A DNA stretch of 64,000 nt from an uncultured Methanosarcinaceae archaeon (GCA_963847185.1 CAWJYV010000001.1:128001-192000); one strand, 5' to 3'. Shown: positions 15,942 through 42,997, numbered from the stretch's first letter. A program made the numbers and translations. The notes: generated from the letters alone by a model not told the origin.

Positions 15942-18107
15942 GTGTTCACAATAGATATTAGTAAAAAGGTTCTGATAATAACTTTGTTGATTTTTGCCGT
16001 TCTTACCACTGCATTTACTTTCACCTATAATATGCAACTTTCTAATTTTTTAGAGCTTGAACAGGCGGACACAATGGAGAATGTAGAAAGGGTACAAAAT
16101 GCAATTTCGACTGAACAGGGATATCTTGATTACCTGGTTGCGGATTGGGCCTGCTGGAATGAGACTTACAGGTTTGTCGAAAATAGGAATCAACTGTTTG
16201 TAGATGAAACTATTGATAATGAAACTCTTGTAGGGCTCAAACTTGACGTGATAATTTTTGTGAATAATTCTGGATCTGTAGTCTACGCAAAATCGGTAGA
16301 CTCCGATACCGGAGAAGAAAAATCGGTTCCCAAGAGCCTTTTTAAACTCATAGAAAACAAAACTATTCTTGTAGAATCCGAAAATAAACCCATTAGAGGT
16401 TTTGTTTTACTCGATGAAGATCCAATGTATATTTCCTGCTATCCTATCCTGACGACAAATATGCAGGGACCTATGAAGGGCACTCTGATTTTTGGGAGAT
16501 ACTTTGACAGCTCTCTTATTGATTCTTTAAAAAAAGTTACACGATCTTCTCTTTTGATGTACAGGGTAGATGAAAATATGCCTCTCGATTTTAAGACAAA
16601 GTTTCACAATTTATCCACGCTTCCTGGTAGGACTATTGTCGAGCCCCTTAGTGAAGAGAGAATAGCAGGTTATTTTGAGTTCAAGGACATTTCAGGCAAG
16701 CCTGCCATTATAATGAGAGCTGATTTCCCAAGAGATCTCTATCAGCATGGAGAAAAAACTCTGAATTACATGTATTTTTTTCTTTTGTTAACCGGGATTA
16801 TGACGGGTGTCGGAGTTAAATTTTCACTTGACAGGTTATTCATTTCAAGATTAGTTGAAATTGATAATTTTGTTACAAAGGTAAGATCGGAAAAGGATCT
16901 TTCCAAAAGATTATTTCTTAAAGATAATGATGAACTCTATCGTTTGTCAAGAGAAATAAATGGAATGCTAAACGAAATTCATTTGATAGAGCAAGAATTA
17001 AAATCACAGGAAAGGGAAAAGAAAGTCCTGCTAGATTCTCTTGAGGAACTAGTTATCTTCATAAATCCTGATCTTAATATAATATGGGCAAACAAGGCTG
17101 CCCTCGGACATATTAAAATGAGCCTCCAAGATGCAGTGGGCAAATGCATAAAATCCATTCCTGACATGAGCGGTGCTTTATCTGAAGACAAGCAAATTGA
17201 ACAAATTTTTTTAATAGGCAACAAAAAATCATGGGAATTTACTTCAAAGGACGACAGGATCTGGTTTGTACAGGCAATCCCGGTTACTGGAGAGGATGGA
17301 AAGATTATAGGTATTATGGTAACCTGTAGAGAGATTACGGAAAGGAAGGTAGCAGAAAAACTTCGACAGGAAAAACAAATTGCAGAAATTGCAAACAGGA
17401 CGAAAAGCGAGTTCCTGGCAAATATGAGCCACGAACTGAGAACCCCACTTAACTCAATAATAGGATTTTCTGACATGCTGTATGAGCAGGCGTATGGAAA
17501 ACTTAGTGAAAAACAATTAAGAGCAGTAGGAAATATATCTAGGAGTGGAAAACATCTACTGGGTCTTATCAATGATATTCTGGATCTTTCAAAAGTGGAA
17601 GCCGGAAAACTTGAACTTGACTATAAAGACTTTGAACTTGCTCCCAAGCTTAGTATGATACAAAATTTGCTGTCTCCAATTGCAGATCGAAAAAATATTA
17701 AAATCGAAATTGATATTGATAGTGAGCTTAAAAGTATCCGTGCGGACGAATCCAGGTTTGCTCAGATCATGTATAACCTTGTGGATAATGCTATTAAGTT
17801 CTCCTATGAAAACAGTCTCATAAAGATTAAGGCAAGAAAAAAGGGAGACCTGGTGGAGATAACAGTTAAAGATACCGGAATGGGTATTAAACTTAAGGAT
17901 CAGAATAAACTTTTTAAACCCTTTAGTCAGATAGATTATTTTTCCTCCAAAAAATTCCAGGGAACGGGGCTCGGTCTTTCATTAGTTAAGCAGATTGTCC
18001 AGTTGCATGGTGGATATGTCTGGTTCAAGAGCAATCTGGAGGAAGGAAGTACTTTTGCATTTACAATTCCAATAAATGGAGATAGAGGCAAAGGAGGAGA
18101 CTTATAA
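15942..18107 (+). CDS. Membrane sensor histidine kinase (CHASE4-HAMP-PAS-HisKA-HATPase)
   Basis: TM, DWACWNETY (CHASE4-like), DELYRLSREINGML (HAMP), KSEFLANMSHELRTPL, GTGLGL. Confidence 0.92.
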   Translation: MFTIDISKKVLIITLLIFAVLTTAFTFTYNMQLSNFLELEQADTMENVERVQNAISTEQGYLDYLVADWACWNETYRFVENRNQLFVDETIDNETLVGLKLDVIIFVNNSGSVVYAKSVDSDTGEEKSVPKSLFKLIENKTILVESENKPIRGFVLLDEDPMYISCYPILTTNMQGPMKGTLIFGRYFDSSLIDSLKKVTRSSLLMYRVDENMPLDFKTKFHNLSTLPGRTIVEPLSEERIAGYFEFKDISGKPAIIMRADFPRDLYQHGEKTLNYMYFFLLLTGIMTGVGVKFSLDRLFISRLVEIDNFVTKVRSEKDLSKRLFLKDNDELYRLSREINGMLNEIHLIEQELKSQEREKKVLLDSLEELVIFINPDLNIIWANKAALGHIKMSLQDAVGKCIKSIPDMSGALSEDKQIEQIFLIGNKKSWEFTSKDDRIWFVQAIPVTGEDGKIIGIMVTCREITERKVAEKLRQEKQIAEIANRTKSEFLANMSHELRTPLNSIIGFSDMLYEQAYGKLSEKQLRAVGNISRSGKHLLGLINDILDLSKVEAGKLELDYKDFELAPKLSMIQNLLSPIADRKNIKIEIDIDSELKSIRADESRFAQIMYNLVDNAIKFSYENSLIKIKARKKGDLVEITVKDTGMGIKLKDQNKLFKPFSQIDYFSSKKFQGTGLGLSLVKQIVQLHGGYVWFKSNLEEGSTFAFTIPINGDRGKGGDL

Positions 18108-18399
18108 ATTTGGACAATATCCTTGCAAATTTATTACGTGCATTACACAGCCAAGAATGTTACATGTAACCAAACTTAGAATTTTATAAAAGGAACTAAA
18201 GTAAAAGAAGAGGGCTACAGAAGCTCTTAGAAGGATCTCGCATATATAGAAGGTAGGGATAGAAATGCAAAAATAGCTATCCCATATTTCCATCCAGATC
18301 ACAATAATTCGAAAAAGAATCTACTGAATGCAGGCAAACTAAAGTTTAAACATTGTTCAGAATATAAGTTGACAGCCTCCTCCATTTTTTAATTTCTAG

Positions 18400-18595
18400 C
18401 CCAAATTTGACAGAAGCACATATTGTATAATGTCTAAATGGGCTTCATGCTTTTGTTTTCTGTATACAATTCAAAGTTTTGTTTCGCATCTTATGATTTT
18501 TTAACATTTTTCATTTTACGGAAATGTAATGTGTCGATGAACTTGTTTTGTGTAAGAAAATAATGTATTGATTAACAGAATCTGTCAAATTAGGG
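18400..18595. mobile_element. MITE-like element, family B
   Basis: TIRs CCCAAATTTGACAGA / TCTGTCAAATTAGGG (14/15 match); TCTA on both flanks is a possible TSD. Confidence 0.55.
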
Positions 18596-18613
18596 TTCTA
18601 ACCATATCTTCTA

Positions 18614-18865
18614 ACCGACATTCTGCAGATGTTCTCAAAAAAACAACATTATTCCTGCTATTGATTTTGGAGAATTATTCAAAAATTCTCCAGTTATTAT
18701 CTCAACTGAAGCCTTGAGAATTGGGGTTAAAAGCTTTTATTAAAGGCAAAAAGGGCGAAAATTGGAGGACATTTAAAAAATATTTTTTTGAGTTACCGGG
18801 GTAGTTTCCAAAAAACGCTAGCAGGAAAAATCGTGAAAATTGTCAGACATCTGCGGAAAATCAGT
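18614..18865. mobile_element. MITE-like element, family A, copy 2
   Basis: TIRs ACCGACATTCTGCAGATGTT / GACATCTGCGGAAAATCAGT; interior colinear with 6828-7081 (e.g. TCAACTGAAGCCTTG). Confidence 0.75.
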
Positions 18866-18983
18866 TGAATTCAGCAAATTGTCACATTTCTGTTCAGACA
18901 GATGTCAGTATTTAAATAACAATTTTTGTACCTTTTTTTAGCTATTAATAAGATTTAAGGTACTTTTTGCCCCAAAAGCGAAA

Positions 18984-19033
18984 TTTAAATATTAACAATG
19001 AATAGGATGTTTTGCCAATTCACAATTGTGAAT
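18984..19033 (+). promoter_or_regulatory. TATA box plus palindrome ATTCACAATTGTGAAT upstream of tRNA-Cys 1
   Basis: TTTAAATA at 18984; palindrome core at 19019-19032. Confidence 0.75.
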
Positions 19034-19042
19034 ATACAAAGT

Positions 19043-19114
19043 GCCAAGATGGCAGAAAGGCTATGCAATGGGCAGCAGATCCATTTAATTTCGGTTCGAA
19101 TCCGAATCTTGGCT
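19043..19114 (+). tRNA. tRNA-Cys(GCA) with non-canonical A33
   Basis: Acceptor GCCAAGA/TCTTGGC, D stem GCA/TGC, anticodon stem ATGGG/TCCAT with loop CA-GCA-GA, T arm TTCGG-TTCGAAT-CCGAA, U73. Confidence 0.85.
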
Positions 19115-19313
19115 TGGGAATTTCTATGTACAGGAGGGAAAGAAAATACTTTGAGTTATCATTCCTGGAACATCTGGAAATTCTCAGAAAAGCACTAAAA
19201 ATGCTGGAAAAACATTAGGAAGGTAGAAAATGAAGAAATATGGGAAAAAATATTGGAACAGATAATATGTGAAGTTAAAGAAGGCAAAAATATGAATTCA
19301 ACAAGGTTAAAGT

Positions 19314-19790
19314 ATGAAAGGAGAGATCGTTAACGGAATACAGAATTCTGTCTTCGATCTGGATGAACATGTCGTTGAAAAGGCCTCGGAGGCTCTTGAC
19401 GATGGATTTACAGTTGAAATAATCTGGGAGGCTCTTGAGCTAATTGAGCTGTATTTTATTTTGCGTATAATGGGGCATTTGCTTCTTGAAGCGGAATATA
19501 TACTTCTCAAAGTTAGAACTAATCCTCTCCATCTGATTGAACAGAAATTTGTTCAAGCTGTAAAAATAATAGGTGGTATCCTTGAAAAAGGGAAATTCCA
19601 ACTATGGCAGATATTTAATATGTATCACATTTCAAAAGGAACAGTGATAAAAGTGCGCAGACAGTTAACAATGGAATCTAAAAAAGATACAGGGTTATAT
19701 GGGAACTTTATCATGGAGTCTGATCGCACATCAACTCGCCCTCTGGTTTCACATGTAACCGAGACTTTAACTTCATCATACTGTTGTTGA
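19314..19790 (+). pseudogene. Degenerate ORF; N-terminus resembles the cap domain of a corrinoid (B12-binding) protein
   Basis: EIVNGIQNSVFDLDEHVVEKASEALDDGF resembles the MtaC/MtbC-type N-terminal helical cap; no DxHxxG motif seen. Confidence 0.35.
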
Positions 19791-19994
19791 TTGAGACTAT
19801 TATAAACTCCCTAACCTCCTTTTATTTTTTTCTAAGATATCTACTGCACAAAATAATTTTTACCAGAAAACTCTCTTTTTAAGCTGGAATGTTCCATAAA
19901 GTTGTGGTCTCTGCAGTTGTATATTCGTTTTCGATTTCGTTTCTGGCATCAAACATTAGAAATATTTGGATTACTTTTTGCCTTGAAAAGTAGT

Positions 19995-20043
19995 TTTAAA
20001 TATTAATAATGTGTATGAGTATTATCCATTCACAATTGTGAAT
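19995..20043 (+). promoter_or_regulatory. TATA box plus palindrome ATTCACAATTGTGAAT upstream of tRNA-Cys 2
   Basis: TTTAAATA at 19995; palindrome at 20028-20043. Confidence 0.75.
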
Positions 20044-20049
20044 TGATGT

Positions 20050-20121
20050 GCCAGGGTGGCGGAAAGGCTACGCAATGGACTGCAGATCCATTTCATCCCG
20101 ATTCGATTCCGGGCTCTGGCT
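20050..20121 (+). tRNA. tRNA-Cys(GCA) with an A53:C61 T-stem mismatch
   Basis: Identical to 20278-20349 except CCCGATTCG versus CCCGGTTCG; loop CT-GCA-GA. Confidence 0.85.
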
Positions 20122-20221
20122 TGAAAGTTTCGTTGCAGGTACTACAAGAAAACTTTTGAAAATTTACAGTTTTCTTCGCCCTTAAATGCCGTAAAAGGCA
20201 TATTTTGCCTTGAAAAAAAGG

Positions 20222-20270
20222 TTTAAATATTAAAAATGAGTATGACGTGTTGCCAGTTCACAATTGTGAA
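20222..20270 (+). promoter_or_regulatory. TATA box plus palindrome TTCACAATTGTGAA upstream of tRNA-Cys 3
   Basis: TTTAAATA at 20222; palindrome at 20257-20270. Confidence 0.75.
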
Positions 20271-20277
20271 TTGATGT

Positions 20278-20349
20278 GCCAGGGTGGCGGAAAGGCTACG
20301 CAATGGACTGCAGATCCATTTCATCCCGGTTCGATTCCGGGCTCTGGCT
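20278..20349 (+). tRNA. tRNA-Cys(GCA), canonical
   Basis: Full cloverleaf GCCAGGG/CTCTGGC, ATGGA-CTGCAGA-TCCAT, CCCGG-TTCGATT-CCGGG, G37, U73. Confidence 0.95.
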
Positions 20350-20467
20350 TAAAAGTTTTCTCATAAAGGTTAGCAGAAAACTTTTAGCAAGAAAATTCCA
20401 GGGCTCTTTTTGCTCAGAAGGAGGCTCAAGAAGAATAAACAAATAAGAAATAAACAGCAAATAAAAC

Positions 20468-20483
20468 CTTCACAATTGTGAAG
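20468..20483. promoter_or_regulatory. Fourth, orphan copy of the palindrome (CTTCACAATTGTGAAG)
   Basis: Perfect 16-bp palindrome, with no tRNA directly after it and no TTTAAATA 35 bp upstream. Confidence 0.6.
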
Positions 20484-20592
20484 CATAATGGCGCCAGTCA
20501 ACAAATGACTCAACTAAAAAGGTATGAAACACTCCCATTCGTAGATGAACAGACAAAACACGACTCATAAAACCCACAACCAAATTTGTGCA

Positions 20593-20721
20593 ACTCACTT
20601 TCCGCAGAAATCCACAAAATAATACCCTTCCACTCAATATGGGTATAGCCCTAAATTTTATTAGTAATATAACTATTGGGCAAATCACTCCTCAATTGTG
20701 TACATCTGCGGAACAGTGTGT
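20593..20721. mobile_element. Short derivative of MITE family A abutting the tRNA-Cys 4 promoter region
   Basis: ACTCACTTTCCGCAGA at the left end and ACATCTGCGGAACAGTG at the right end match family A TIRs. Confidence 0.5.
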
Positions 20722-20745
20722 ATAATATAAAAAACCAGAAAAGAT

Positions 20746-20817
20746 GCTGTGATGGCGGAAAGGCTACGCGGTGGACTGCAAATCCATTACATCCCGGTTC
20801 GATTCCGGGTCTCAGCT
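20746..20817 (+). tRNA. Divergent tRNA-Cys(GCA) with A37 and a U5:U68 acceptor mismatch
   Basis: GCTGTGA/TCTCAGC, GTGGA-CTGCAAA-TCCAT, CCCGG-TTCGATT-CCGGG, U73; ends 12 bp before the pscS ATG. Confidence 0.88.
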
Positions 20818-20829
20818 TAGGGGTAATAT

Positions 20830-22218
20830 ATGGATATAAGAACACAAAAAACATTTGAGGCACTTTTTGCCCTTGAAGATATTAGGGAGACTCTTAGACA
20901 AACACTTCCAAATATCACAAGTCCAGAAGAAGAGCATGCCATTAAAGAAGGCGTGAGCAAAGTCAGAAAAATTCTGGATGATATCGAGAACGATACCGGA
21001 ACCCCGGACATAAGAAAAATAGCTGATAATATTGATATTCGGTCCAGAGAAGAAACATACATCAATATACAGCCGATCCAGGCAGCTGGAAGGCTTACAC
21101 CAGAAGCAAGAAAAGCTCTAATAGCATATGGCGATGGCTACTCCACCTGTGATGCCTGCCGAAAACCTTTCAGGCTAGACAAAATAAGCAGTCCGCCTAT
21201 CGCTCCATTTCATGAACAACTCGCTAGCTTCGTTAATATGGATGTTGCTCGAGTAGTACCAGGCGCTAGAAGAGGATTCCAGGCAGTGGCATCCACTCTG
21301 GTCAATAAAGGAGATTTAGTAATAGTTTCATCCCTTGCTCATTATACAGAATTCCTTGCAGTAGAAGAAGCAGGAGGAATAGTTAGAGAAGTGCCCTTAA
21401 ACGAGCACAATCTTGTAACTGCAGATGCAACTGCTGAGAAAATTGAAGCAGTTAAGCAGGAAACAGGTAAACTGCCTGTACTGGTAATGATCGACCATTT
21501 TGATTACCAGTATGCCAATGAGCACGATGTAAAAAGCATTGCAAAAGTTGCGCACCAGTATGATATTCCTCTCCTGTATAACGGAGCATATACTGTTGGA
21601 GTAAGGCCAGTTGATGGAAAAGATATCGGTGCGGACTTCATCGTGGGTTCAGGCCACAAAAGCATGGCATCACCTGCACCGTCTGGAGTACTGGCAACAA
21701 CCGAGGAATGGGCTCCGAAAGTATTCCGCACAACTCAGATGACAGGTGATCTCACAAAACGCAAGTTTGGTGTAAAAGAAGTCGAGATGCTTGGCTGCAC
21801 ACTAATGGGCTCAACATTGCTGGGTATGATGGCTTCGTTCCCTACAGTTAAGGAGAGAGTAAAGAACTGGGAAGACGAGTTAAAAAAATCGAATTATCTG
21901 ATCGATGGGTTGCTTGCTATAGAAGGCAGTAAAGTAGTCTCAGAGTACCCACGAAAACATACCCTCTCCAAAGTTGACACAAGCAAGAGCTTTGATCTTA
22001 TAGCCCAGGAGCATAAACGAAGAGGTTTCTTCCTTTCAGACGAACTTTCAAGCAAGGGCATTGTCGGAGAATTTGCAGGAGCCACACGCGTTTGGAAACT
22101 TAACACATACGGGCTTTCATGGGAGAAAGTTCGCTATGTAGTAGATACATTCCAGGAAATTGCTGAAAAATACAAACTTCAGGTAAACAAGGAGAAGAAT
22201 TCCAATGGTAACAAATAA
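20830..22218 (+). CDS. pscS: O-phosphoseryl-tRNA:Cys-tRNA synthase (SepCysS), long form with ~65-aa N-terminal extension
   Basis: [45 protein letters not shown] Lys in [20 protein letters not shown]. Confidence 0.93.
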
Positions 22219-23500
22219 CTATAAACTGGGAACACTTGCCCTTCACGCTGGACAGGTTCCGGACCCCACAACAGGATCACGTACAGTACCGATATATCAG
22301 ACAACATCGTATGTTTTCAGGGATACTGACCATGCAGCCAACCTTTTTGGCCTTAAAGAGCTTGGCAACATCTACACCCGTATAATGAATCCTACTACTG
22401 ACGTTTTTGAACAGCGCATAGCTGCTATTGAGGGTGGAACCGGCGCTCTTGGAGTCGCTTCCGGCTCGGCAGCAATAACTTATGCCCTGTTAGCGATTAC
22501 GCGGATAGGGGACGAAATAATATCCGGAAACAACCTCTACGGGGGAACCTATGAACTTTTCAATTACACTTTCCCCAAGCTGGGAAGAAAAGTAACATTT
22601 GTAGATTCGACTGATATAGAAGCCTACCAAAAGGCAGTCAATGAAAAGACCAGGGCTATTTATATTGAGTCTGTTGGAAACCCTAAACTTGATATTCCGG
22701 ATTTTGAGGCAATTGCAGATATTGCTCACAGAGCCGGAGTTCCGCTTGTTGTAGACAATACAAGTGCTGTAGGACTTGTCCGGCCCATTGATCATGGAGC
22801 AGATATTGTTGTACATTCTGCAACCAAATTCATTGGCGGGCATGGAAACTCAATTGGAGGTTCAATTGTCGATTCCGGAAAGTTCTCCTGGAACAACGGC
22901 AAGTTCCCGGAATTAACAGATCCTGATCCAAGCTACCATGGTTTAAAATACTGGGATACCTTTTCAGATTTTCCTGGGCTTGGGAATGTGGCATTTGTCT
23001 TTAAAGTAAGGTTGCAGCTTCTTCGAGACACAGGTGCTGCGATTTCACCTTTTAATTCGTTCCTGCTGCTTCAGGGACTTGAAACCCTGCATCTAAGGAT
23101 ACAGAGACACTCAGAAAACGCCCTCAAGGTAGCACAATATCTTTCAAAACATCCTAAGGTCTCATGGGTCAATTATCCCGGTTTACCGGATCATCCAAGC
23201 CATAAACTTGCATCCAGATATCTCAAAGGCGGATATGGTGCGTTGCTGGGTTTCGGCGTGAAAGGCGGTGCTGAAGCAGGTAAAAAGTTTATTAACAATC
23301 TGGAACTGTTTTCACACGTCGCAAATATCGGAGATTCAAAGAGCCTCGTTATTCATCCTGCAACTACCACACATCAGCAGCTTACGCCGGCTGAGCAGGA
23401 AGCTACAGGTGTTAAACCGGATTATATACGCCTTTCCATAGGTATTGAGGATATAGAAGATATAATCTCAGATCTAAAACAAGCTCTGGAGAAAGTGTAA
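22205..23500 (+). CDS. metY: O-acetylhomoserine aminocarboxypropyltransferase / cysteine synthase family sulfhydrylase
   Basis: [51 protein letters not shown]; overlaps pscS by 14 nt. Confidence 0.92.
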
Positions 23501-23669
23501 CTGGCCTTATGCCAGTGGGCACTAATGCCGATTTATATAGAAACATTACAAAAAGAAATGGTATTTTGATGAGTTACATCTCATCAATACAACCTTGCTA
23601 CTACTTTCATTACTCTTATTTTACAATTCTTTTTTAAATATTATTTAGATAAACAAACGGATGACATTC

Positions 23670-24567
23670 ATGGACTTCGAAAAATTACGACACGGGACCG
23701 AACTTATCAAGCGGGGCTTTGCACGGATGCAGAAAGGGGGTGTGATCATGGACGTTACAACTCCCGAACAGGCCCGGATCGCAGAAGAAGCCGGAGCAGT
23801 TGCCGTTATGGCTCTTCAGGCTGTCCCCGCAGATATCAGGAAAGCCGGGGGAGTTGCCCGGATGGCAGACCCTGAAATCGTTCAAAAAATCATTGATACG
23901 GTCACAATTCCTGTAATGGCAAAAGCCAGGATCGGGCACTTCGTAGAGGCTGAAATATCTAGAAGCCCTTGGCGTTGACATGGTGGACGAATCAGAAGTC
24001 CTGACCCCTGCTGACCCTTACTACCACATAGACAAGACACAGTTTACCGTTCCTTTTGTCTGCGGAGCCAGAAACCTTGGAGAAGCTCTTCGCAGAATTA
24101 ATGAAGGGGCAGCCATGATCCGGACAAAAGGAGAAGCCGGAACTGGAGATGTCAGCCAGGCAGTAAAGCACATGAAGCAGATTCAGGGAGAAATCCGTGC
24201 CCTTGCCGGAAAAACCAAAGAAGAACTCATTCTGGTTGCAAGGGAAATAGAAGCTCCTATAGAACTTGTTGTCGAAACCGCAAAAATGCAGCGCCTTCCG
24301 GTAGTAAACTTTGCAGCAGGCGGAGTTGCAACTCCTGCAGATGCAGCACTTATGATGCGCCTTGGAGCAGACGGAGTTTTTGTGGGCTCAGGAATTTTCA
24401 AAGCCGAAAACCCTGAAAAGATGGCAAAGGCAATTGTTGAAGCAGTCAACAACTTTGACAACCCTGCAAAACTAGCAGAAATCTCAAAAGGCGTGGGTGC
24501 AGGCATGAAAGGCATCAGCGCAGATATGATCCCTGCTGCAGAAGCTCTCCAGGAACGCGGGTGGTAA
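23670..24567 (+). pseudogene. pdxS: Pyridoxal 5'-phosphate synthase lyase subunit PdxS, frameshifted
   Basis: [38 protein letters not shown]. Removing one base at ~23958 restores [11 protein letters not shown]; real mutation or sequencing error. Confidence 0.9.
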
Positions 24568-24569
24568 TC

Positions 24570-24625
24570 CACCCGAGTTTCGCTTCGGGAGCACGAAGTC
24601 TTTTCGCTTCGCTCAAGAGGACTAA
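24570..24625 (+). repeat. Dispersed REP-like intergenic repeat, short copy 3
   Basis: CACCCGAGTTTCGCTTCGGGA...TTCGCTTCGCTCAAGAGGACTAA immediately after the pdxS stop. Confidence 0.65.
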
Positions 24626-24963
24626 TTTATGGCTTAGAATCTTATTTAGCTTCCTTAATTGGGTGGATCTTGAGAAAATTCGATTTGTTTCACTGCGCTT
24701 AAAAGTACTAACTTCTGGTAATTATACAGCCATTTGATAGCACTTTCCCAATAAACGATTAATCTTTAATTATATATATCATGAAGAACTCTAATGTGCT
24801 GGGCATCTGGGTAGGTCATTAAAGACCCTTTATAAACTCTTTTTAATAACCCCCCAACACCCCCAACTCCCCAATACCCGGGTGCTCATTCCCATTTTCT
24901 ACTCCTTAGATCATAGAATTCGTTTTCTTGTTCGGATTTGTCTGGAGAGGACTCAATTCAGCT

Positions 24964-25019
24964 TTTTCAGGCAATATAACTCAACTGGTAATTTTCAGGC
25001 AATATAACTCAACTGGTAA
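24964..25019 (+). repeat. 28-bp perfect tandem duplication
   Basis: TTTTCAGGCAATATAACTCAACTGGTAA x2. Confidence 0.9.
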
Positions 25020-25712
25020 CAGAACAATAATTCCTATGAGCCCTTTTCCTCCTCCAATCAGATGGTTATAATCAGGATAAACGAATCCATATCCTATGAC
25101 CTGTGCATTGAAAACTCCGTACACGTATGAAGCCAGAAGTATTCTTTTATTTTCAGGGTCAAAACCCCGATATAAATTCCAAGCAGAGTGATCAGGACAG
25201 TAAGTATTAGGCCTCCGGCTATTTTATCAGGATAATCTCTGGAGTTAAGAAGAAGTACAAAAGGCAGATGTCAGAGTCCCCAGTTAAACCTGAGATTATG
25301 AGTGCTTTTTCTCTTCAAAAGGCAGTAATTTAGGGAGCTTGTCCAGTGCTTCAGCGCGGCTTAAACCGTTTCCTCTCAAAAAAGGTATTTAAAAATAGGG
25401 ATTTTAGGGATTTTTAATAACAAAGATTAATGATCAAATTGCGGAAAATAATAACCAAAAATTTATCCTAAGTAAATTTCATTAGTTTTAATTTCAATTT
25501 AATATAAATAAGCATTATTCCGTAAGCTTATTCAGAAATATTGGTTCTTTCTATTAAGAAAAATTCAAAAAAGTTAACAAATTTTAATATTTACTTATAT
25601 TTCACTACTAATTCCTCTAAATTTCAAAAGTAGAAAATAATTAGAAAAACTAACCGAAAAACTTTTAACCTTTCTCGAAGGAATATGTAATTCATTAAGA
25701 AATTATGTATGA

Positions 25713-38428: not shown

Positions 38429-39626
38429 TCATTCAATGATCTTTCTAGCCTCAATATAGTATCTTTTCTCGTTTTCCTTTCCCAGAGAAAATGACTTTCT
38501 TGGAAGGACACCCTTCTTTTTTATAAGAGAAAAAAATTCACTTTTTTTAAGGGAAGGAAGGAAGAAACCAATGTTCCCTTTCTCTTTTCCTAGTTTTTCC
38601 ACAATCCCAGGATCATGTTCATACTCAACTGAATAGTCATCAATAATCTCATCAAGAGTCTCTACTTCAAGGTCGTGTTTTGGATTCTCAAAGATCAGTA
38701 CACCGCACCTGTCTTCCGTGATAAATCCGATTGAATGACCGGTTGAAGAGCCGATATTTGATAGGTCTTCTGTTAAATTACAGGCTGGAAGTTCTATGAT
38801 CCTTGCATTGAATTTACTAAGAAGTTTCTCAGGTTCTACTTCCTTTACAACCCTGTGAATAGGCTCAAAAGTAAGGCCTGGATCATGAATGTTTACAAGT
38901 TCAACCATAGCGTACCTTGCAGGATGATTCCCAGGCACAGTTTTTTTAATCTTTTCCCAAAAACTTTTTGCTGCAGCAAGGCTATGATTTCCGTCACCAA
39001 CAAGAAGGAGCCCGAGGGCTTGAATCTTTTCCGAAATTTCTTTAATTATTTTCTCGTCACTGAGCTTATAGCCAGTGATATGGCCTCCTTCTTCCATCAG
39101 TTCAAAGTCGTAAACCTTATTGTCTACATATACAAAATCATGTATAGTTCCTGGGAATTACCTCGAATTCAGGGTCATTATATAATACCAGAATATGGGA
39201 AAGTTCTAGATCTGCGTTTTCTCTGATTCTTACTCTTGCAGGAAGCCTTTCTTTGATCGTTCCTTCAGTGGGCCGAATAAAAGAATCAGATCCGTTAAAT
39301 TCATATTCTTCGAGATCAATTGCAGCTACAAGGCCTGTTCTCTCATTGCCTGAGACAGAACGCTTTATAAGAATAAAGCTGGGGCCGTGGTCAGTAAGAA
39401 TTTTTTTGTAATTACTTATATTTTCATGGATCTTTTCTACTCTTTTTTCGTCTAAAGGAAGATAAATTTCCGGATAAATTAGGTTTAAAGCAGAAGGAGT
39501 ATTTCCAACAAATTCTTCAACCCTTTGCCAGTATTCTATATCCTGAGTGTGCTGATCGCAGGCAATTACTGCCCATTTTTCCCAATTATCCTTTGGAAGA
39601 AGAATGTGAGGGACGTGCAATATCAT
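38429..39626 (-). pseudogene. DUF1015 family protein, frameshifted
   Basis: WAVIACDQ, RPTEGTIKERLPAR, VGDGNHSLAAAK, FEPIHRV, GVLPRKSFS. One extra base at 39153-39155. Confidence 0.85.
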
Positions 39627-40735: not shown

Positions 40736-42997
40736 ATGAAGCATAAAAAAGAAAAACCCCAGGCTTCGGGTCAACAGAAACAAAAAAGAAACCGACAGGA
40801 GCTGAAAGGTTCTCAAAATTCGAGTAAGAAGAATCCAAAGTTCAGTGAAAAACACACAGAAGACAAATCTCGAAGCTTTAATAAAAGTTCTTTCAATAAG
40901 AGCCTTGGCGCTGAAAAAAGCTCGAATTCGGCCAGAAATACTTCCCATCGCTTCGAATATGAAGATGACCATATTTTCTGGTGCCGGAAATGCAACCTTC
41001 CCTTGATAGGAGAAGAATGCGGAAGATGCGGCAGTAAAGGAGAAATTATCCAGCTTTCCCAGCCTTCTGACGTCAGATTATGTTCCCCTTACGAGAGGGA
41101 AGTGCTTGTAAGGCAACTTTATTCAGCTTTCGGCTTCAGTCCTCTTGGAGAAAGGCTCATTCTTCTCAATAAAATTCCTGGTGAGGATAAAACTGATGAA
41201 GTAATCGTAGATGGTTTCATTTTCGGAATTCTCCGTTTTGAGCTCTCTAAAATGGATTACAACTTTGAACCTTCCCTTCATGGAGCAAAAATTCTCCTGG
41301 AATATACTGCAGGCAAGAAAGTCGGACTTAAGAAAGCAAACAGACATCTTAACGGAAAGAATATCCCTGCAGAGATTGTCGGGTCTTTTGATACCAATAT
41401 AAAGGCAGGAGATTTCGTCCTTGTGACTGCAGGCAGCCTTACGGGATATGGAGTATCCTATATTGATGGTGTGGATTTTTCAGACCTGAAAAATCTGTCT
41501 GAAAACAAAGGCCTGCCTGAAAACAAAGTTTCGACTGAAACTGAAGTCCTAATTGAAAAGGAAACCAAAAAGAAATCTGAATCTTCACTTGATGCCGGGA
41601 GAAAAGTTATCCGAATCAGAAAGGTTGACAGCAATGAGGCATCCCTTAATCCTGAAATCCCGGACATCAGGGCATGCATAGAAGCTAACAAAAAACACCT
41701 GCAGATTCTTGGCAAAAACGCAATCAACACTATTCGCGGAATTGTTTCCAGAACCGAACATAAAAACCTGCCAGTCTACGTTTCTTTTAGCGGGGGAAAA
41801 GACAGCCTTGTGGTGCTGGACCTGGCGCGGGCCTCCCTAAAACAGAGAGAACTCAAAGCTTTCTTCCTCAATACGGGAATAGAATTTCCAGAGACTGTCG
41901 AGTTTGTAAGACGTTTTTGCCGGGAGATGGAAATTTCTCTTGAAGAGGTGGATGCTGGTTCTGCTTTCTGGGAGCAAGTAGAAAAATTCGGGCCTCCTGC
42001 AAAGGATTTTCGCTGGTGCTGCAAGGTATGTAAACTGGCTTCTGCGGGAGACCTGGAAGCAGGGAAAGGAAGCTGTTCTCTCTCAAGTAAGGATACAGGT
42101 AGCATAGCTTATCTGACAATTGATGGCAAGCGAAAACATGAATCATTTTCAAGGGCAAGGATTGCTGCAAGTGAAACAAATCCCTTTGTTCCCGCCCAGC
42201 TTAATCTCTTCCCTATCAGAGACTGGAAGGCACTTGAAGTCTGGCTTTATATCTACTGGAGAGGACTTTCATATAATCCGCTCTATGATCTCGGCTTCGA
42301 AAGGGTGGGTTGCTGGCTTTGCCCGTCAGCTCTAGCTGCCGAATATGCAAGGGTAAAAGAGCTACACCCTGAGATGTATGAGAAGTGGAATACTTTCCTG
42401 TACGAATGGGCAAAATCCAGAGGCCTTCCGGAAAAATTCGTAGAACACGGGTTCTGGCGCTGGAAGGAACTGCCTCCTAAAATGCTCAGGCTGGCAGAGG
42501 AACTCGGGATTACCGTTCTTGCAAGAGAAAATACCGAAGTTTTTGAAATTACAGTGGTAAGTGGAATTTCCCCATGCAGGGCTGGAGGCTTTTCAATTGA
42601 AGCAGGAGTTCGGGGTATCAGGGAAAAAGAAGCTGCAGATTTCGTAAACGTGCTGGGAAGTACGGTTTACGCGGAAGAACTGGGCATGTTGCTGGTCAAA
42701 ACCGGAGAAGGAACTGTAAAGTTTTTTTCAAATGGCAACCTGCTTGTAAGTTCGGAAACAAAGGAAAAAGCTGTAAGCCTTTTTAAGGAAACTGCCAAGC
42801 AATTCATAAGGCTTTCCCGCTGTACAGGCTGCGGTATCTGTGTAAAGGCCTGTCCTGCAGGAGCAGCTTCTCTTAATGAAAAAAAGCCATGTGTAAGCGA
42901 AGCTTGTATCAGATGTGGGAAATGTACTGAATCCTGCGTAGTGACCAGGTATTTTAACAAACTTGTACCCGATCTGGATCAAAAATTAAAAGTTTAA
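40736..42997 (+). CDS. PAPS reductase family protein with Zn knuckle, PUA-like region and C-terminal 4Fe-4S domain
   Basis: WCRKCNLP..CGRCG, SFSGGKDS, NTGIEFPET, RWCCKVCK, RVGCWLCP, CTGCGICVKACP, CIRCGKC. Confidence 0.9.
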   Translation: MKHKKEKPQASGQQKQKRNRQELKGSQNSSKKNPKFSEKHTEDKSRSFNKSSFNKSLGAEKSSNSARNTSHRFEYEDDHIFWCRKCNLPLIGEECGRCGSKGEIIQLSQPSDVRLCSPYEREVLVRQLYSAFGFSPLGERLILLNKIPGEDKTDEVIVDGFIFGILRFELSKMDYNFEPSLHGAKILLEYTAGKKVGLKKANRHLNGKNIPAEIVGSFDTNIKAGDFVLVTAGSLTGYGVSYIDGVDFSDLKNLSENKGLPENKVSTETEVLIEKETKKKSESSLDAGRKVIRIRKVDSNEASLNPEIPDIRACIEANKKHLQILGKNAINTIRGIVSRTEHKNLPVYVSFSGGKDSLVVLDLARASLKQRELKAFFLNTGIEFPETVEFVRRFCREMEISLEEVDAGSAFWEQVEKFGPPAKDFRWCCKVCKLASAGDLEAGKGSCSLSSKDTGSIAYLTIDGKRKHESFSRARIAASETNPFVPAQLNLFPIRDWKALEVWLYIYWRGLSYNPLYDLGFERVGCWLCPSALAAEYARVKELHPEMYEKWNTFLYEWAKSRGLPEKFVEHGFWRWKELPPKMLRLAEELGITVLARENTEVFEITVVSGISPCRAGGFSIEAGVRGIREKEAADFVNVLGSTVYAEELGMLLVKTGEGTVKFFSNGNLLVSSETKEKAVSLFKETAKQFIRLSRCTGCGICVKACPAGAASLNEKKPCVSEACIRCGKCTESCVVTRYFNKLVPDLDQKLKV

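What the first reader, a model, noticed from the sequence alone, without database searches (positions are those of the whole stretch)
19043..24567. Cysteine/sulfur module: four tRNA-Cys genes leading into long-form SepCysS, a sulfhydrylase and pdxS
Seen: four GCA tRNAs within 1.8 kb. The last ends 12 bp before pscS, pscS overlaps metY by 14 nt, and pdxS follows on the same strand. Established: SepCysS converts Sep-tRNA(Cys) to Cys-tRNA(Cys); both it and O-acetylhomoserine sulfhydrylase are PLP enzymes; PdxS makes PLP; Methanosarcina species carry several tRNA-Cys isoacceptors. Inference: an accessory tRNA-pscS-metY cassette was added at the native tRNA-Cys locus, giving a co-regulated sulfide-assimilation unit with its own tRNA substrate and cofactor supply. 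Long SepCysS linked to tRNA-Cys has precedent in other lineages, so the novelty is this specific assembly.
Basis: partly seen in the sequence, partly recalled or inferred. Interest (0 to 1): 0.75.

Follow-up and report, generated by a model that had tools for sequence, protein, structure and literature searches.

The report
Accessory tRNA-Cys/SepCysS sulfur cassette
This methanogen genome carries an extra, already described kind of gene cassette (four cysteine tRNAs, a second long SepCysS and a homocysteine synthase), and a repeated 14-base palindrome appears to tie it into a wider, so far undescribed, control circuit for sulfur amino acids.

Summary
There are four tRNA-Cys(GCA) genes, a 462-aa SepCysS starting 12 nt after the last tRNA, and a metY overlapping it by 14 nt. 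The pdxS behind them is split by a 1-nt insertion, and it is a duplicate of an intact pdxS-pdxT locus elsewhere in the genome.

The cassette is accessory. A short SepCysS lies elsewhere in the genome, and the long form occurs in 30 of 59 genomes of the genus. It does not sit at the native tRNA-Cys locus, which is a conserved tandem elsewhere.

The assembly is not new. Mukai et al. 2017 list a "Methanosarcina mazei 2nd (SepCysSN)" enzyme and describe clade VII loci with tRNA-Cys and sulfur genes. In 80 loci from many genera, metY follows the long SepCysS in 58 of 75 that could be scored.

What I did not find in print:
- The palindrome TTCACAATTGTGAA sits just upstream of these tRNA genes, and genus-wide in front of tRNA-Cys-metY-metX, iscSU and cysK-cysE.
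- A small Cys-rich HTH gene (MA2719 type) has the palindrome in its own upstream region and co-occurs with the palindrome and with metX/metY.

In this genome the cassette metY is the only metY. I found no cysK, cysE or HTH ortholog in the assembly.

The parts
18984..18993 (+). TATA-like box (tttaaatatt) of the tRNA1 promoter module
   Evidence: Read from the sequence. It belongs to the ~80-nt upstream module shared by tRNA1-3.
19019..19032 (.). Palindrome TTCACAATTGTGAA, 10 nt before tRNA1
   Evidence: It is one of 7 exact 14-mers in the 4.04-Mb genome.
19043..19114 (+). tRNA-Cys(GCA) no. 1. Its acceptor stem matches the housekeeping type, and it has A at position 33 and G37.
   Evidence: (48.1 bits). 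The A33 variant is shared with G009 and G017.
19314..19790 (+). 158-aa ORF of unknown family, ending in ...SYCC in 9 of 10 aligned copies (Y and the first Cys invariant)
   Evidence: Nine further copies from genus relatives were aligned; they are 47-94% identical and lie in the same place in the cassette. No Pfam, NCBIfam or Atlas hit. The AlphaFold2 model is poor (pLDDT 52).
20029..20042 (.). Palindrome TTCACAATTGTGAA, 7 nt before tRNA2
20050..20121 (+). tRNA-Cys(GCA) no. 2 (array class P, G37, A53:C61 mismatch)
   Evidence: (49 bits)
20257..20270 (.). Palindrome TTCACAATTGTGAA, 7 nt before tRNA3
20278..20349 (+). tRNA-Cys(GCA) no. 3 (array class P, G37, clean cloverleaf)
   Evidence: (55 bits)
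20469..20482 (.). Fourth palindrome, with no tRNA directly behind it. It heads the 263-nt leader (20483-20745) before tRNA4.
   Evidence: This arrangement is conserved in 10 genus loci.
20599..20713 (+). Conserved long-range inverted repeat in the leader (tttccgcagaaatccacaa ... ttgtgtacatctgcggaa)
   Evidence: RNAalifold on 10 sequences gives 16 pairs in this stem, 3 of them with changes on both sides. G003 keeps the stem but lacks the ~120 nt between its halves. No Rfam family matches.
20746..20817 (+). tRNA-Cys(GCA) no. 4 (class S: acceptor GCUGxGA, A37, U5:U68 mismatch)
   Evidence: (54.5 bits). In 10 of 10 genus loci first fetched, a tRNA-Cys lies directly before the long pscS.
20830..22218 (+). 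Long (SepCysSN-type, clade VII) SepCysS, 462 aa. Residues 1-~70 form the N-terminal two-helix extension.
22205..23500 (+). metY, O-acetylhomoserine sulfhydrylase of the cassette type. It is the only metY in this genome.
23661..24567 (+). pdxS duplicate, frameshifted by one extra base at 23957. It is probably not part of the operon.
   Evidence: A TATA-like tttaaatatt lies at about 23636-23645.

Best explanation
This is an accessory copy of a known module, the clade VII 'second' SepCysS of Methanosarcina with its fused N-terminal SepCysSN extension. A dedicated A37 tRNA-Cys lies 12 nt in front of it, an O-acetylhomoserine sulfhydrylase follows it, and three further stand-alone tRNA-Cys genes lie upstream.

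Shown:
- The composition of the cassette, its patchy distribution in the genus, and the existence of a separate short SepCysS, one SepRS and one CysRS.
- The housekeeping tRNA-Cys locus lies elsewhere.
- pdxS is a frameshifted duplicate.
- The cassette metY is the only metY in this genome. The native metY locus has decayed to palindrome - broken tRNA - metX.
- A 14-bp palindrome stands between a TATA-like box and each of tRNA1-3, and at the head of the leader of tRNA4-pscS-metY. In relatives the same palindrome stands before tRNA-Cys-metY-metX, iscS-iscU-nadA, cysK-cysE and a small Cys-rich HTH gene.

Inferred:
- The palindrome is the operator of a repressor, most likely the MA2719-type HTH protein with four conserved cysteines, which reports sulfur, cysteine or Fe-S status.
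- On derepression the cell makes extra tRNA-Cys, a second SepCysS and homocysteine synthase together.
- tRNA4, pscS and metY are made as one precursor. RNase P and RNase Z cut out the tRNA and leave pscS with an 11-nt leader that carries its ribosome-binding site.
- pdxS is transcribed on its own and does not belong to the unit.
- In this genome no cysK or cysE was found, so the SepRS/SepCysS route would be the only way to make cysteine. No ortholog of the regulator was found either, so the module may be permanently switched on here.
For: Identity of the genes. The alignment to 3wkr shows the 8-residue insertion that Mukai et al. assign to clades II-VII.

N-terminal extension:
- 587 proteins match residues 1-100 at E<=1e-3, with source names from Methanosarcina, Methanolobus, Methanomethylovorans, Methanoculleus and Methanoregula.
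- Residues K7, E10, F13, L15, E16, R19, R23 and P27 are invariant in 30 sequences.
- The AlphaFold2 model has two helices, 3-24 and 32-53, with pLDDT 78-93.

Published precedent: Mukai 2017 Fig. S1 lists 'Methanosarcina mazei 2nd (SepCysSN)'. [quoted passage not shown]

Accessory status.

tRNA classes and the housekeeping locus.

Palindrome:
- G000 has 10 sites of TCACAATTGTGA against 0 for the reversed control, and 55 of 59 genus genomes have the motif. The 4 genomes without it also lack metX and metY.
- 7 of 7 native loci examined read palindrome - tRNA-Cys - metY - metX.
- In 80 loci from many genera the core CACAATTGTG occurs 83 times in 640,093 nt, against 0 for the reversed control. It lies within 80 nt upstream of 41 of 87 tRNA-Cys genes.
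- In the complete genome G041 all 3 sites lie in one 4.3-kb stretch, before tRNA-metY-metX, between iscS and the HTH gene, and before cysK-cysE.

Regulator candidate:
- It lies beside the long pscS in 14 of 80 loci.
- A palindrome lies 42-53 nt before its start in 4 of the 7 loci inspected, about 200 nt before it in 1, and nearby in none of the other 2.
- G012, G054, G008, G010 and G019 lack metX, metY and the ortholog, and have 0-1 palindrome sites.

Co-transcription:
- The 12-nt gap leaves no room for a promoter, and the spacing is conserved at 10-13 nt.
- One contig from an RNA library bridges 20399-21023, and another bridges 22117-22267.

Only metY, and the decayed native locus. No cysK or cysE.
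Against: - No transcript start, no protein-DNA binding and no response to sulfur has been measured.
- The contigs from RNA libraries come from relatives (94% alike in one case), can contain DNA, and do not prove a single transcript. One of them starts 70 nt upstream of the presumed start site.
- The window's own genome has 10 palindromes but no ortholog of the proposed regulator, only a 36-40% paralog that every genome of the genus has. Either the assembly (10 contigs) misses it, or it was lost, or another protein binds the site.
- Three of the four tRNAs carry defects (A33, A53:C61, U5:U68) that could mean decay.
- The HTH protein reaches no Pfam or NCBIfam cut-off.
- The N-terminal extension shows no sequence match to SepCysE in the PDB.
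- The palindrome could travel as part of a repeated promoter-tRNA unit rather than being kept by selection at each site.
Confidence: 0.65

Rival explanations
1. The cassette was inserted into the native tRNA-Cys locus and forms one co-regulated unit from tRNA1 to pdxS, with pdxS supplying PLP for the two PLP enzymes.
For: All the genes lie on one strand within 5.5 kb. pdxS follows metY in several relatives: G005, G009, G017, G022, G046 and G074. SepCysS and MetY are both PLP enzymes (established knowledge).
Against: The genus-wide tRNA-Cys locus is elsewhere. pdxS is frameshifted here. It duplicates the pdxS-pdxT locus, starting exactly at its coding region, and it has its own TATA-like box. 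pdxS is absent after metY in G004 and was seen in only 1 of 80 loci from many genera. tRNA1-3 each have their own promoter module.
Confidence: 0.1
2. The extra tRNA-Cys genes are decaying duplicates with no function of their own. The palindrome is merely part of a repeated promoter-tRNA unit that spreads by recombination. Only pscS and metY matter.
For: There are defects in tRNA1, tRNA2 and tRNA4. The copy number per locus varies from 1 to 4. One array copy in G022 has its anticodon changed to GUA. Broken copies lie at C10:~183745-183809 and C1:218650. tRNA2 and tRNA3 belong to a 185-nt repeat that is 88% identical between its copies.
Against: The classes are conserved across species, each with its own acceptor stem and position 37. 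All four score well above the Rfam threshold. The palindrome also stands before genes that have no tRNA in front (metX, iscS, cysK, the HTH gene, a conserved 95-aa ORF), in different sequence contexts and in other orders of methanogens.
Confidence: 0.15
3. The cassette is ancestral and vertically inherited in the genus, and was lost many times. It was not 'added'.
For: Between G000 and G004 or G005 the long pscS (92-93% identity) is about as conserved as the short one (89-90%). Remnants of a deleted pscS survive between tRNA and metY in G013, and G006 keeps palindrome-tRNA-metY. The tRNA-pscS-metY-metX order is widespread in two orders of methanogens.
Against: G061 is close to G000 in its short pscS (93%) and metX (92%), yet carries only a 71-72% version, inside the native operon. 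Several genomes carry two copies (G018, G046, G067, G068). The flanking genes differ between species, and multi-copy repeats border the locus. No tree was built, so the matter is open.
Confidence: 0.3

Closest known systems
Clade VII SepCysS loci of Mukai et al. 2017 (mBio, PMC5424206), including 'Methanosarcina mazei 2nd (SepCysSN)'
   Same: A long SepCysS with a fused N-terminal extension. A tRNA-Cys gene lies directly upstream, with an A37 type shown in their Fig. S2 key. metY and metX appear among the neighbours. A free-standing tRNA-Thr-ED gene is linked; here it is on the same contig, 80 kb away, at C1:233663-234091, about 1 kb from a palindrome.
   Different: Here there are four tRNA-Cys genes of three sequence classes. 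metX is not in the cassette. A 158-aa SYCC protein and a broken pdxS copy are present. In the parts of that paper I read (passages and supplementary files 3 and 4) there is no mention of a shared palindrome or a regulator.
Methanosarcina acetivorans cluster MA2714-MA2719: metX, metY, nadA, iscU2, iscS2, HTH XRE-family-like protein (legend of Fig. S1 in PMC7585200)
   Same: The same gene order is seen in the complete genus genome G041. That paper ties IscSU2 to cysteine-specific sulfur metabolism (abstract and passages).
   Different: In the passages and the supplement I read, the paper names no tRNA-Cys gene, palindrome or regulatory role for MA2719. In the window's genome this cluster is reduced to palindromes - broken tRNA - metX. 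The iscSU2 type, the HTH gene, cysK and cysE were not found.
SepRS-SepCysE-SepCysS transsulfursome of class I methanogens (PDB 3wkr, 5x6b)
   Same: The catalytic domain aligns over residues 71-448 at E 5e-93. The extension is predicted as two helices, which is how SepCysE's SepCysS-binding N-terminal domain is described (helix-turn-helix; Mukai 2017).
   Different: No separate SepCysE was seen. The extension has no detectable sequence match to any PDB chain, SepCysE included. Whether it recruits SepRS is unknown.
Archaeal repressors whose operators lie between the TATA box and the transcription start, such as NrpR (recalled from memory, not tested here)
   Same: A palindromic site lies directly downstream of a TATA-like box. 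Some promoters carry two copies 17-30 nt apart. A site also lies in front of the presumed regulator gene.
   Different: The controlled genes include tRNA genes. The candidate protein is a ~100-aa HTH with four conserved cysteines and belongs to no curated family.

Membership tests
SepCysS (TIGR02539 / NF006810) | Whole-protein score above the curated cut-off | tested here: met
   NF006810: 636.3 bits against 301. TIGR02539: 413 against 365.25.
SepCysS (TIGR02539 / NF006810) | PLP-binding lysine and three conserved cysteines | tested here: met
   K277 (in GSGHKSMA), C107, C110 and C323 are invariant in 30 long-form sequences. That these correspond to the catalytic residues of the A. fulgidus enzyme is recalled, not tested.
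Clade VII / SepCysSN-fused SepCysS (Mukai 2017) | 8-residue insertion near the active site relative to clade I enzymes | tested here: met
   The alignment to M. jannaschii SepCysS (3wkr_A) shows an 8-residue gap in the PDB chain opposite query residues ~303-310. The criterion comes from the paper's text.
Clade VII / SepCysSN-fused SepCysS (Mukai 2017) | N-terminal domain homologous to the helix-turn-helix N-domain of SepCysE | tested here: inconclusive
   The extension is conserved and predicted as two helices with pLDDT 78-93. Neither phmmer nor a 9-sequence profile finds SepCysE in the PDB at E<=10. The label rests on Mukai's Fig. S1 entry for M. mazei.
O-acetylhomoserine sulfhydrylase (TIGR01326) | Score above the cut-off, full-length Cys_Met_Meta_PP domain | tested here: met
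   674.3 bits against 495.1. PF01053 matches profile positions 2-381 of 381. NF006096 'homocysteine synthase' scores 702.9, just under its cut-off of 726.
PdxS (NF003215) | One intact reading frame of about 300 aa scoring above 395 bits | tested here: not met
   There are two ORFs, scoring 157.9 and 326.4 bits, in different frames, caused by a 1-nt insertion at 23957. The public contigs laid on the place belong to the paralog, so they neither confirm nor refute the extra base.
tRNA-Cys | Cloverleaf, GCA anticodon, U73 discriminator | tested here: met
   The deviations are A33 (tRNA1), A53:C61 (tRNA2), and U5:U68 with A37 (tRNA4). Charging by SepRS or CysRS cannot be tested here.
Operon (co-transcription of tRNA4-pscS-metY) | A single primary transcript | not testable with these tools
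   There are only indirect signs: the 12-nt gap, the 14-nt overlap, and two bridging contigs from RNA libraries.

The most novel reading that the evidence does not exclude
A small HTH protein with four conserved cysteines (the MA2719 family) senses sulfide, cysteine or Fe-S status. Through the palindrome TTCACAATTGTGAA it represses a regulon conserved across Methanosarcinales and Methanomicrobiales. The regulon comprises cysK-cysE, iscSU, metY-metX and the second SepCysS and, unusually, dedicated tRNA-Cys isoacceptor genes, which serve as the first cistron of these operons or stand alone behind the same operator. tRNA supply for cysteine would then be regulated together with sulfur assimilation. 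In the window's genome the regulator and the cysK/cysE route are missing and the native metY has been replaced, so the strain would depend on a permanently derepressed tRNA-dependent module.
Probability: 0.3. Interest if true: 0.7.

Novelty: new variant of a known kind. Interest (0 to 1): 0.5.

Why it matters
Methanogens need large amounts of cysteine for Fe-S enzymes, yet how they regulate sulfur assimilation is largely unknown. The cassette itself is known. The new lead is a directly testable regulator-operator pair that joins both cysteine routes, homocysteine synthesis, Fe-S assembly and the supply of particular tRNA-Cys isoacceptors. Regulated, pathway-specific tRNA genes would be unusual in archaea. 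The genome is also a natural case in which the accessory metY and the tRNA-dependent route appear to have become the only ones.

Tried and rejected
- **158-aa ORF.** No Pfam or NCBIfam family and no Atlas hit. The AlphaFold2 model is too poor to search with (pLDDT 52). Its function stays open.
- **SepCysE homology of the N-terminal extension.** A sequence search and a profile search of the PDB returned only chance-level helical proteins.
- **Rfam on 17500-25500 at E<=1.** Only the four tRNAs and two chance matches were returned, so the leader belongs to no known family.
- **The bacterial-type promoter and terminator scan** was not above the shuffled controls and does not apply to archaeal promoters.
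- **Checking the pdxS frameshift with public runs.** The DNA contig and the RNA contig that lack the extra base also diverge from the window exactly upstream of 23659. The DNA contig's loose end equals the upstream sequence of the C2 paralog, and I take the RNA contig to be the same paralog. No verdict on the frameshift. Depth figures were not used to rank genes.
- **Parts of the locus without cover in the RNA runs** are not evidence of silence.
- **Literature.** Hauenstein & Perona 2008 (PMC2494925) is not held, so its data on M. mazei tRNA-Cys isoacceptors could not be read. What I say about m1G37 comes from the 2022 review (PMC8762117, passages). Searches for the palindrome or for a regulator found nothing relevant. 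The library lacks most subscription journals, so this is not proof that nothing is in print.
- **No phylogenetic tree was built.** Statements about gain versus loss rest on identities and synteny only.

Full report
**What is there**

ARAGORN finds exactly four tRNA genes in the 64-kb window, all tRNA-Cys(GCA), at 19043-19114, 20050-20121, 20278-20349 and 20746-20817. All four exceed the Rfam tRNA threshold, at 48-55 bits against 29.

Twelve nucleotides after the last tRNA a 462-aa ORF begins (20830-22218). It is SepCysS: NF006810 636 bits against a cut-off of 301, and TIGR02539 413 against 365.

A 431-aa O-acetylhomoserine sulfhydrylase follows (22205-23500; TIGR01326 674 bits against 495) and overlaps it by 14 nt.

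The 'pdxS' behind it is two ORFs in different frames, 23661-23978 and 23980-24567. An alignment with three intact copies shows one extra base at 23957.

Source names on the closest proteins place the organism in Methanosarcina. The genome also carries tRNA-Pyl.

**The tRNAs**

The genome has 64 tRNA genes, and 10 of them are tRNA-Cys. They fall into classes that recur across species.

- Class H is the tandem at G000:C8:1424-2517, with G37 and clean stems. Copies at least 96% identical occur in 51 of 59 genomes of the genus, including genomes without the cassette. In the complete genomes it sits near 50 kb. The other 8 genomes are drafts of 140-590 contigs. This is the native locus, not the one in the window.
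- Class P (window tRNA2 and tRNA3, G37) carries a shared ~80-nt upstream module: a TATA-like box and the palindrome TTCACAATTGTGAA, which ends 7 nt before the tRNA.
- tRNA1 has the class H acceptor stem, the same upstream module, and A instead of U at position 33. G009 and G017 share this variant.
- Class S (window tRNA4) always lies 10-13 nt before the long pscS. It has its own acceptor stem and A37 in 14 of 17 genus copies listed. The window's copy has a U5:U68 mismatch that G009 shares.
- Class M (A37) precedes the native metY-metX operon in other species. G000 has an intact copy, detached from that operon, at C2:49490.

**The enzyme**

Residues 71-448 align to the solved SepCysS structures at E 5e-93. 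The alignment shows the 8-residue insertion that Mukai et al. give as a mark of clades II-VII.

The first ~70 residues are a real domain:
- 587 database proteins match residues 1-100.
- Eight positions in the first 27 residues are invariant in 30 sequences from several genera.
- AlphaFold2 predicts two helices, 3-24 and 32-53, with pLDDT 78-93.

Mukai et al. [quoted passage not shown] Their Fig. S1 lists 'Methanosarcina mazei 2nd (SepCysSN)' next to 'Methanosaeta thermophila 2nd (SepCysSN)'. I could not reproduce the SepCysE homology by sequence.

**Accessory or not**

- A short pscS (42% identical, in a 388-aa open frame) lies at C8:87915-89006. The genome has one SepRS and one CysRS.
- In 59 genomes of the genus (G000 included), 26 have a long pscS at 85% identity or more, some in two copies. 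Four have a 70-71% version, and 29 have none.
- The 70-71% version sits inside the native operon, as palindrome - tRNA-Cys - pscS - metY - metX.
- The short pscS of G000 is 98, 93, 90 and 89% identical to those of G009, G061, G004 and G005. The long one is 98, 71-72, 93 and 92% identical. G061 therefore does not fit simple vertical descent.
- The flanking genes of the window's cassette are shared only with G009, and multi-copy repeats border it.
- I built no tree, so gain versus repeated loss remains open.

**metY and the native locus**

The genus has two metY lineages. The cassette type (85% identity or more to the window's) occurs in 26 of 59 genomes. The native type (63-69%) lies directly upstream of metX.

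G000 has only the cassette type. Its native locus on C10 reads: two palindromes, then a broken class M tRNA that ARAGORN no longer calls, then no metY, then metX. The accessory copy has evidently taken over.

**pdxS**

- An intact pdxS lies next to pdxT and a PNPOx-like gene on C2.
- The window copy is 98.1% identical in DNA to that paralog and 97.0% to the syntenic, intact copy in G009.
- The similarity to the paralog starts at 23659, two bases before the ATG.
- A TATA-like box lies about 15 nt before the ATG.
- The public contigs that lack the extra base belong to the paralog, so they neither confirm nor refute the frameshift.
- pdxS follows the cassette in some relatives (G005, G009, G017, G022, G046, G074) but not in G004. 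It was seen in only 1 of 80 loci from many genera.

It is therefore a neighbour, not a component.

**How common is the assembly**

I fetched 80 loci encoding the long SepCysS, from Methanosarcinales, Methanomicrobiales and Methanocella, and scored them.
- A tRNA-Cys lies within 400 nt upstream on the same strand in 44 of the 71 loci that have at least 500 nt of upstream sequence.
- metY follows directly in 58 of the 75 loci that have at least 1400 nt of downstream sequence.
- metX is present in 45 of 80.

Particular to Methanosarcina are the multi-tRNA array, the 158-aa ORF (seen in 4 of the 80 loci, all Methanosarcina or Methanosarcinales/Methanosarcinaceae records) and the absence of metX from the cassette.

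**The palindrome**

TTCACAATTGTGAA occurs 7 times in the 4.04-Mb genome, and 4 of these are in this locus. The 12-mer core occurs 10 times, against 0 for the reversed control.

It is present in 55 of 59 genus genomes. The four genomes without it (G012, G054, G008, G010) also lack metX and metY.

The other sites in G000 are:
- a pair about 400 nt before metX;
- one site between a CooS-like/ABC-transporter operon and a methyltransferase-tRNA-Thr-ED pair;
- a pair before a 95-aa ORF;
- one site of unknown context on C8.

The 95-aa ORF is 86-87% conserved. It lies directly behind a palindrome pair in all 4 of the 5 genomes tested where it was found; it was not found in G041.

In the complete genome G041 all three sites lie within 4.3 kb: before tRNA-metY-metX, between iscS-iscU-nadA and an HTH gene, and before cysK-cysE. 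This gene order matches the one published for M. acetivorans MA2714-MA2719 (supplement legend of PMC7585200).

Across the 80 loci the 10-mer core occurs 83 times in 640 kb, against 0 for the control. It lies within 80 nt upstream of 41 of 87 tRNA-Cys genes. In the 66 loci whose titles do not name Methanosarcina the figure is 26 of 63.

At tRNA1-3 the palindrome lies between the TATA-like box and the tRNA. This is where archaeal repressors typically act (recalled knowledge).

**Candidate regulator**

Clustering the ORFs of the 80 loci brought out a ~100-aa protein with a weak HTH signal.
- Cysteines stand at four conserved positions in all 7 sequences printed: PC near the N-terminus, then C-x2-C, then a C-terminal C.
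- It lies next to the long pscS in 14 of 80 loci. A palindrome lies 42-53 nt before its start in L083, L099, L115 and L124, and about 200 nt before it in L113. L114 and L129 have no palindrome near it.
- In the genus, an ortholog at 85% identity or more is found in most genomes.
- Only a 36-40% paralog is found in G012, G054, G008, G010 and G019, which are the five genomes without metX and metY and with 0-1 palindromes.
- The same is true of G015 (75% complete), G022 (which also has a fragment at a contig end) and G000.

The co-occurrence of protein, site and targets is the main argument for the link. G000 is the awkward exception.

**This genome**

G000 also lacks cysK (best 40.6 bits against 351), cysE (65 against 211) and the iscSU2-type pair. 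In G041 these are the genes around the regulator.

The assembly is rated 99.83% complete but is in 10 contigs, so a gap cannot be excluded. Taken at face value, this strain makes cysteine only on tRNA, has only the cassette metY, and has lost the presumed repressor.

**Co-transcription**

- The 12-nt spacer (uagggguaauau) leaves no room for a promoter and contains a purine-rich stretch that would serve as a ribosome-binding site. The match to the 16S rRNA 3' end is recalled, not tested.
- In G046 (second copy), G006, G013 and G024 the palindrome lies 17-24 nt before the class S tRNA.
- In G000 and nine other loci a 207-405-nt stretch (palindrome plus leader) lies between the palindrome start and the tRNA. 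It contains a conserved long-range stem of 16 pairs, 3 of them with changes on both sides. G003 keeps this stem even though the ~120 nt between its halves are missing. What the stem does is unexplained.
- One contig from an RNA library (94% alike) bridges 20399-21023, and another bridges 22117-22267. These are weak hints only.

**Verdict**

- The 'accessory cassette' reading is right.
- The 'native locus', 'cofactor supply' and 'novel assembly' readings are not.
- The cassette is a new variant of a published kind.
- The part worth following up is the conserved palindrome and its candidate Cys-rich HTH regulator. I did not find either in the literature held here.

Noticed in passing
window 23661-24567 and G000:C2:35866-36786: pdxS exists twice. 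The window copy carries a 1-nt insertion at 23957. It is closer in DNA to its paralog (98.1%) than to the syntenic copy in G009 (97.0%), which suggests a recent duplication or gene conversion.
   Followed up: yes
window 38429-39626 (- strand): A DUF1015 gene is split into two ORFs covering profile positions 13-154 and 175-323. This is a second possible frameshift in the window, so the assembly may contain indel errors.
   Followed up: no
window 24569-24643: A ~70-nt hairpin-forming repeat directly after pdxS has dozens of copies on most contigs of the genome. Public contigs show variable tandem arrangements of it.
   Followed up: partly
window 18386-18600 and 18613-18859: Two multi-copy repeats (74-90% identical copies on several contigs) fill the gap between the histidine kinase gene and tRNA1. 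They may mark a boundary of the cassette.
   Followed up: no
L038:9327-9397 (G022): In G022 an array-class tRNA-Cys gene, with its palindrome, has the anticodon GUA, so ARAGORN calls it tRNA-Tyr. It is either a decaying copy or a potential missense tRNA.
   Followed up: partly
window 19314-19790: A 158-aa protein lies between tRNA1 and tRNA2, conserved in the cassette of many species. Nine of 10 aligned copies end in ...SYCC (Y and the first Cys are invariant, the second Cys is missing in one). It has no known family. A C-terminal Cys-Cys in a sulfur locus invites a sulfur-carrier idea.
   Followed up: partly
G000:C9:34178-34542 (L045:4178-4542): A 95-aa ORF of unknown family lies directly behind two palindromes. 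In all four other genomes where it was found it is 86-87% conserved and again sits behind a palindrome pair.
   Followed up: partly
G000:C10:183677-184095 (L046:3677-4095): The native met locus has decayed to two palindromes, a broken class M tRNA-Cys that ARAGORN does not call, no metY, and then metX.
   Followed up: yes
G000:C1:218032-218720 (outside the window): A weak copy of the promoter module is followed about 540 nt later by an aberrant class S-like tRNA-Cys, next to a polysaccharide-biosynthesis gene. This is probably the remnant of another cassette.
   Followed up: no
whole genome G000: No cysK, cysE, iscSU2-type pair or MA2719-type regulator was found in the assembly, although the closest relative G009 has the regulator.
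   Followed up: partly
G018 (genus relative): G018 has two long pscS copies but no short pscS was found. The genome is rated 92% complete.
   Followed up: no
window 40736-42997: A 753-aa protein with a PAPS-reductase domain lies 16 kb downstream. It is the only other sulfur-related gene among the 22 neighbouring ORFs scanned, from 102 to 46737.
   Followed up: no
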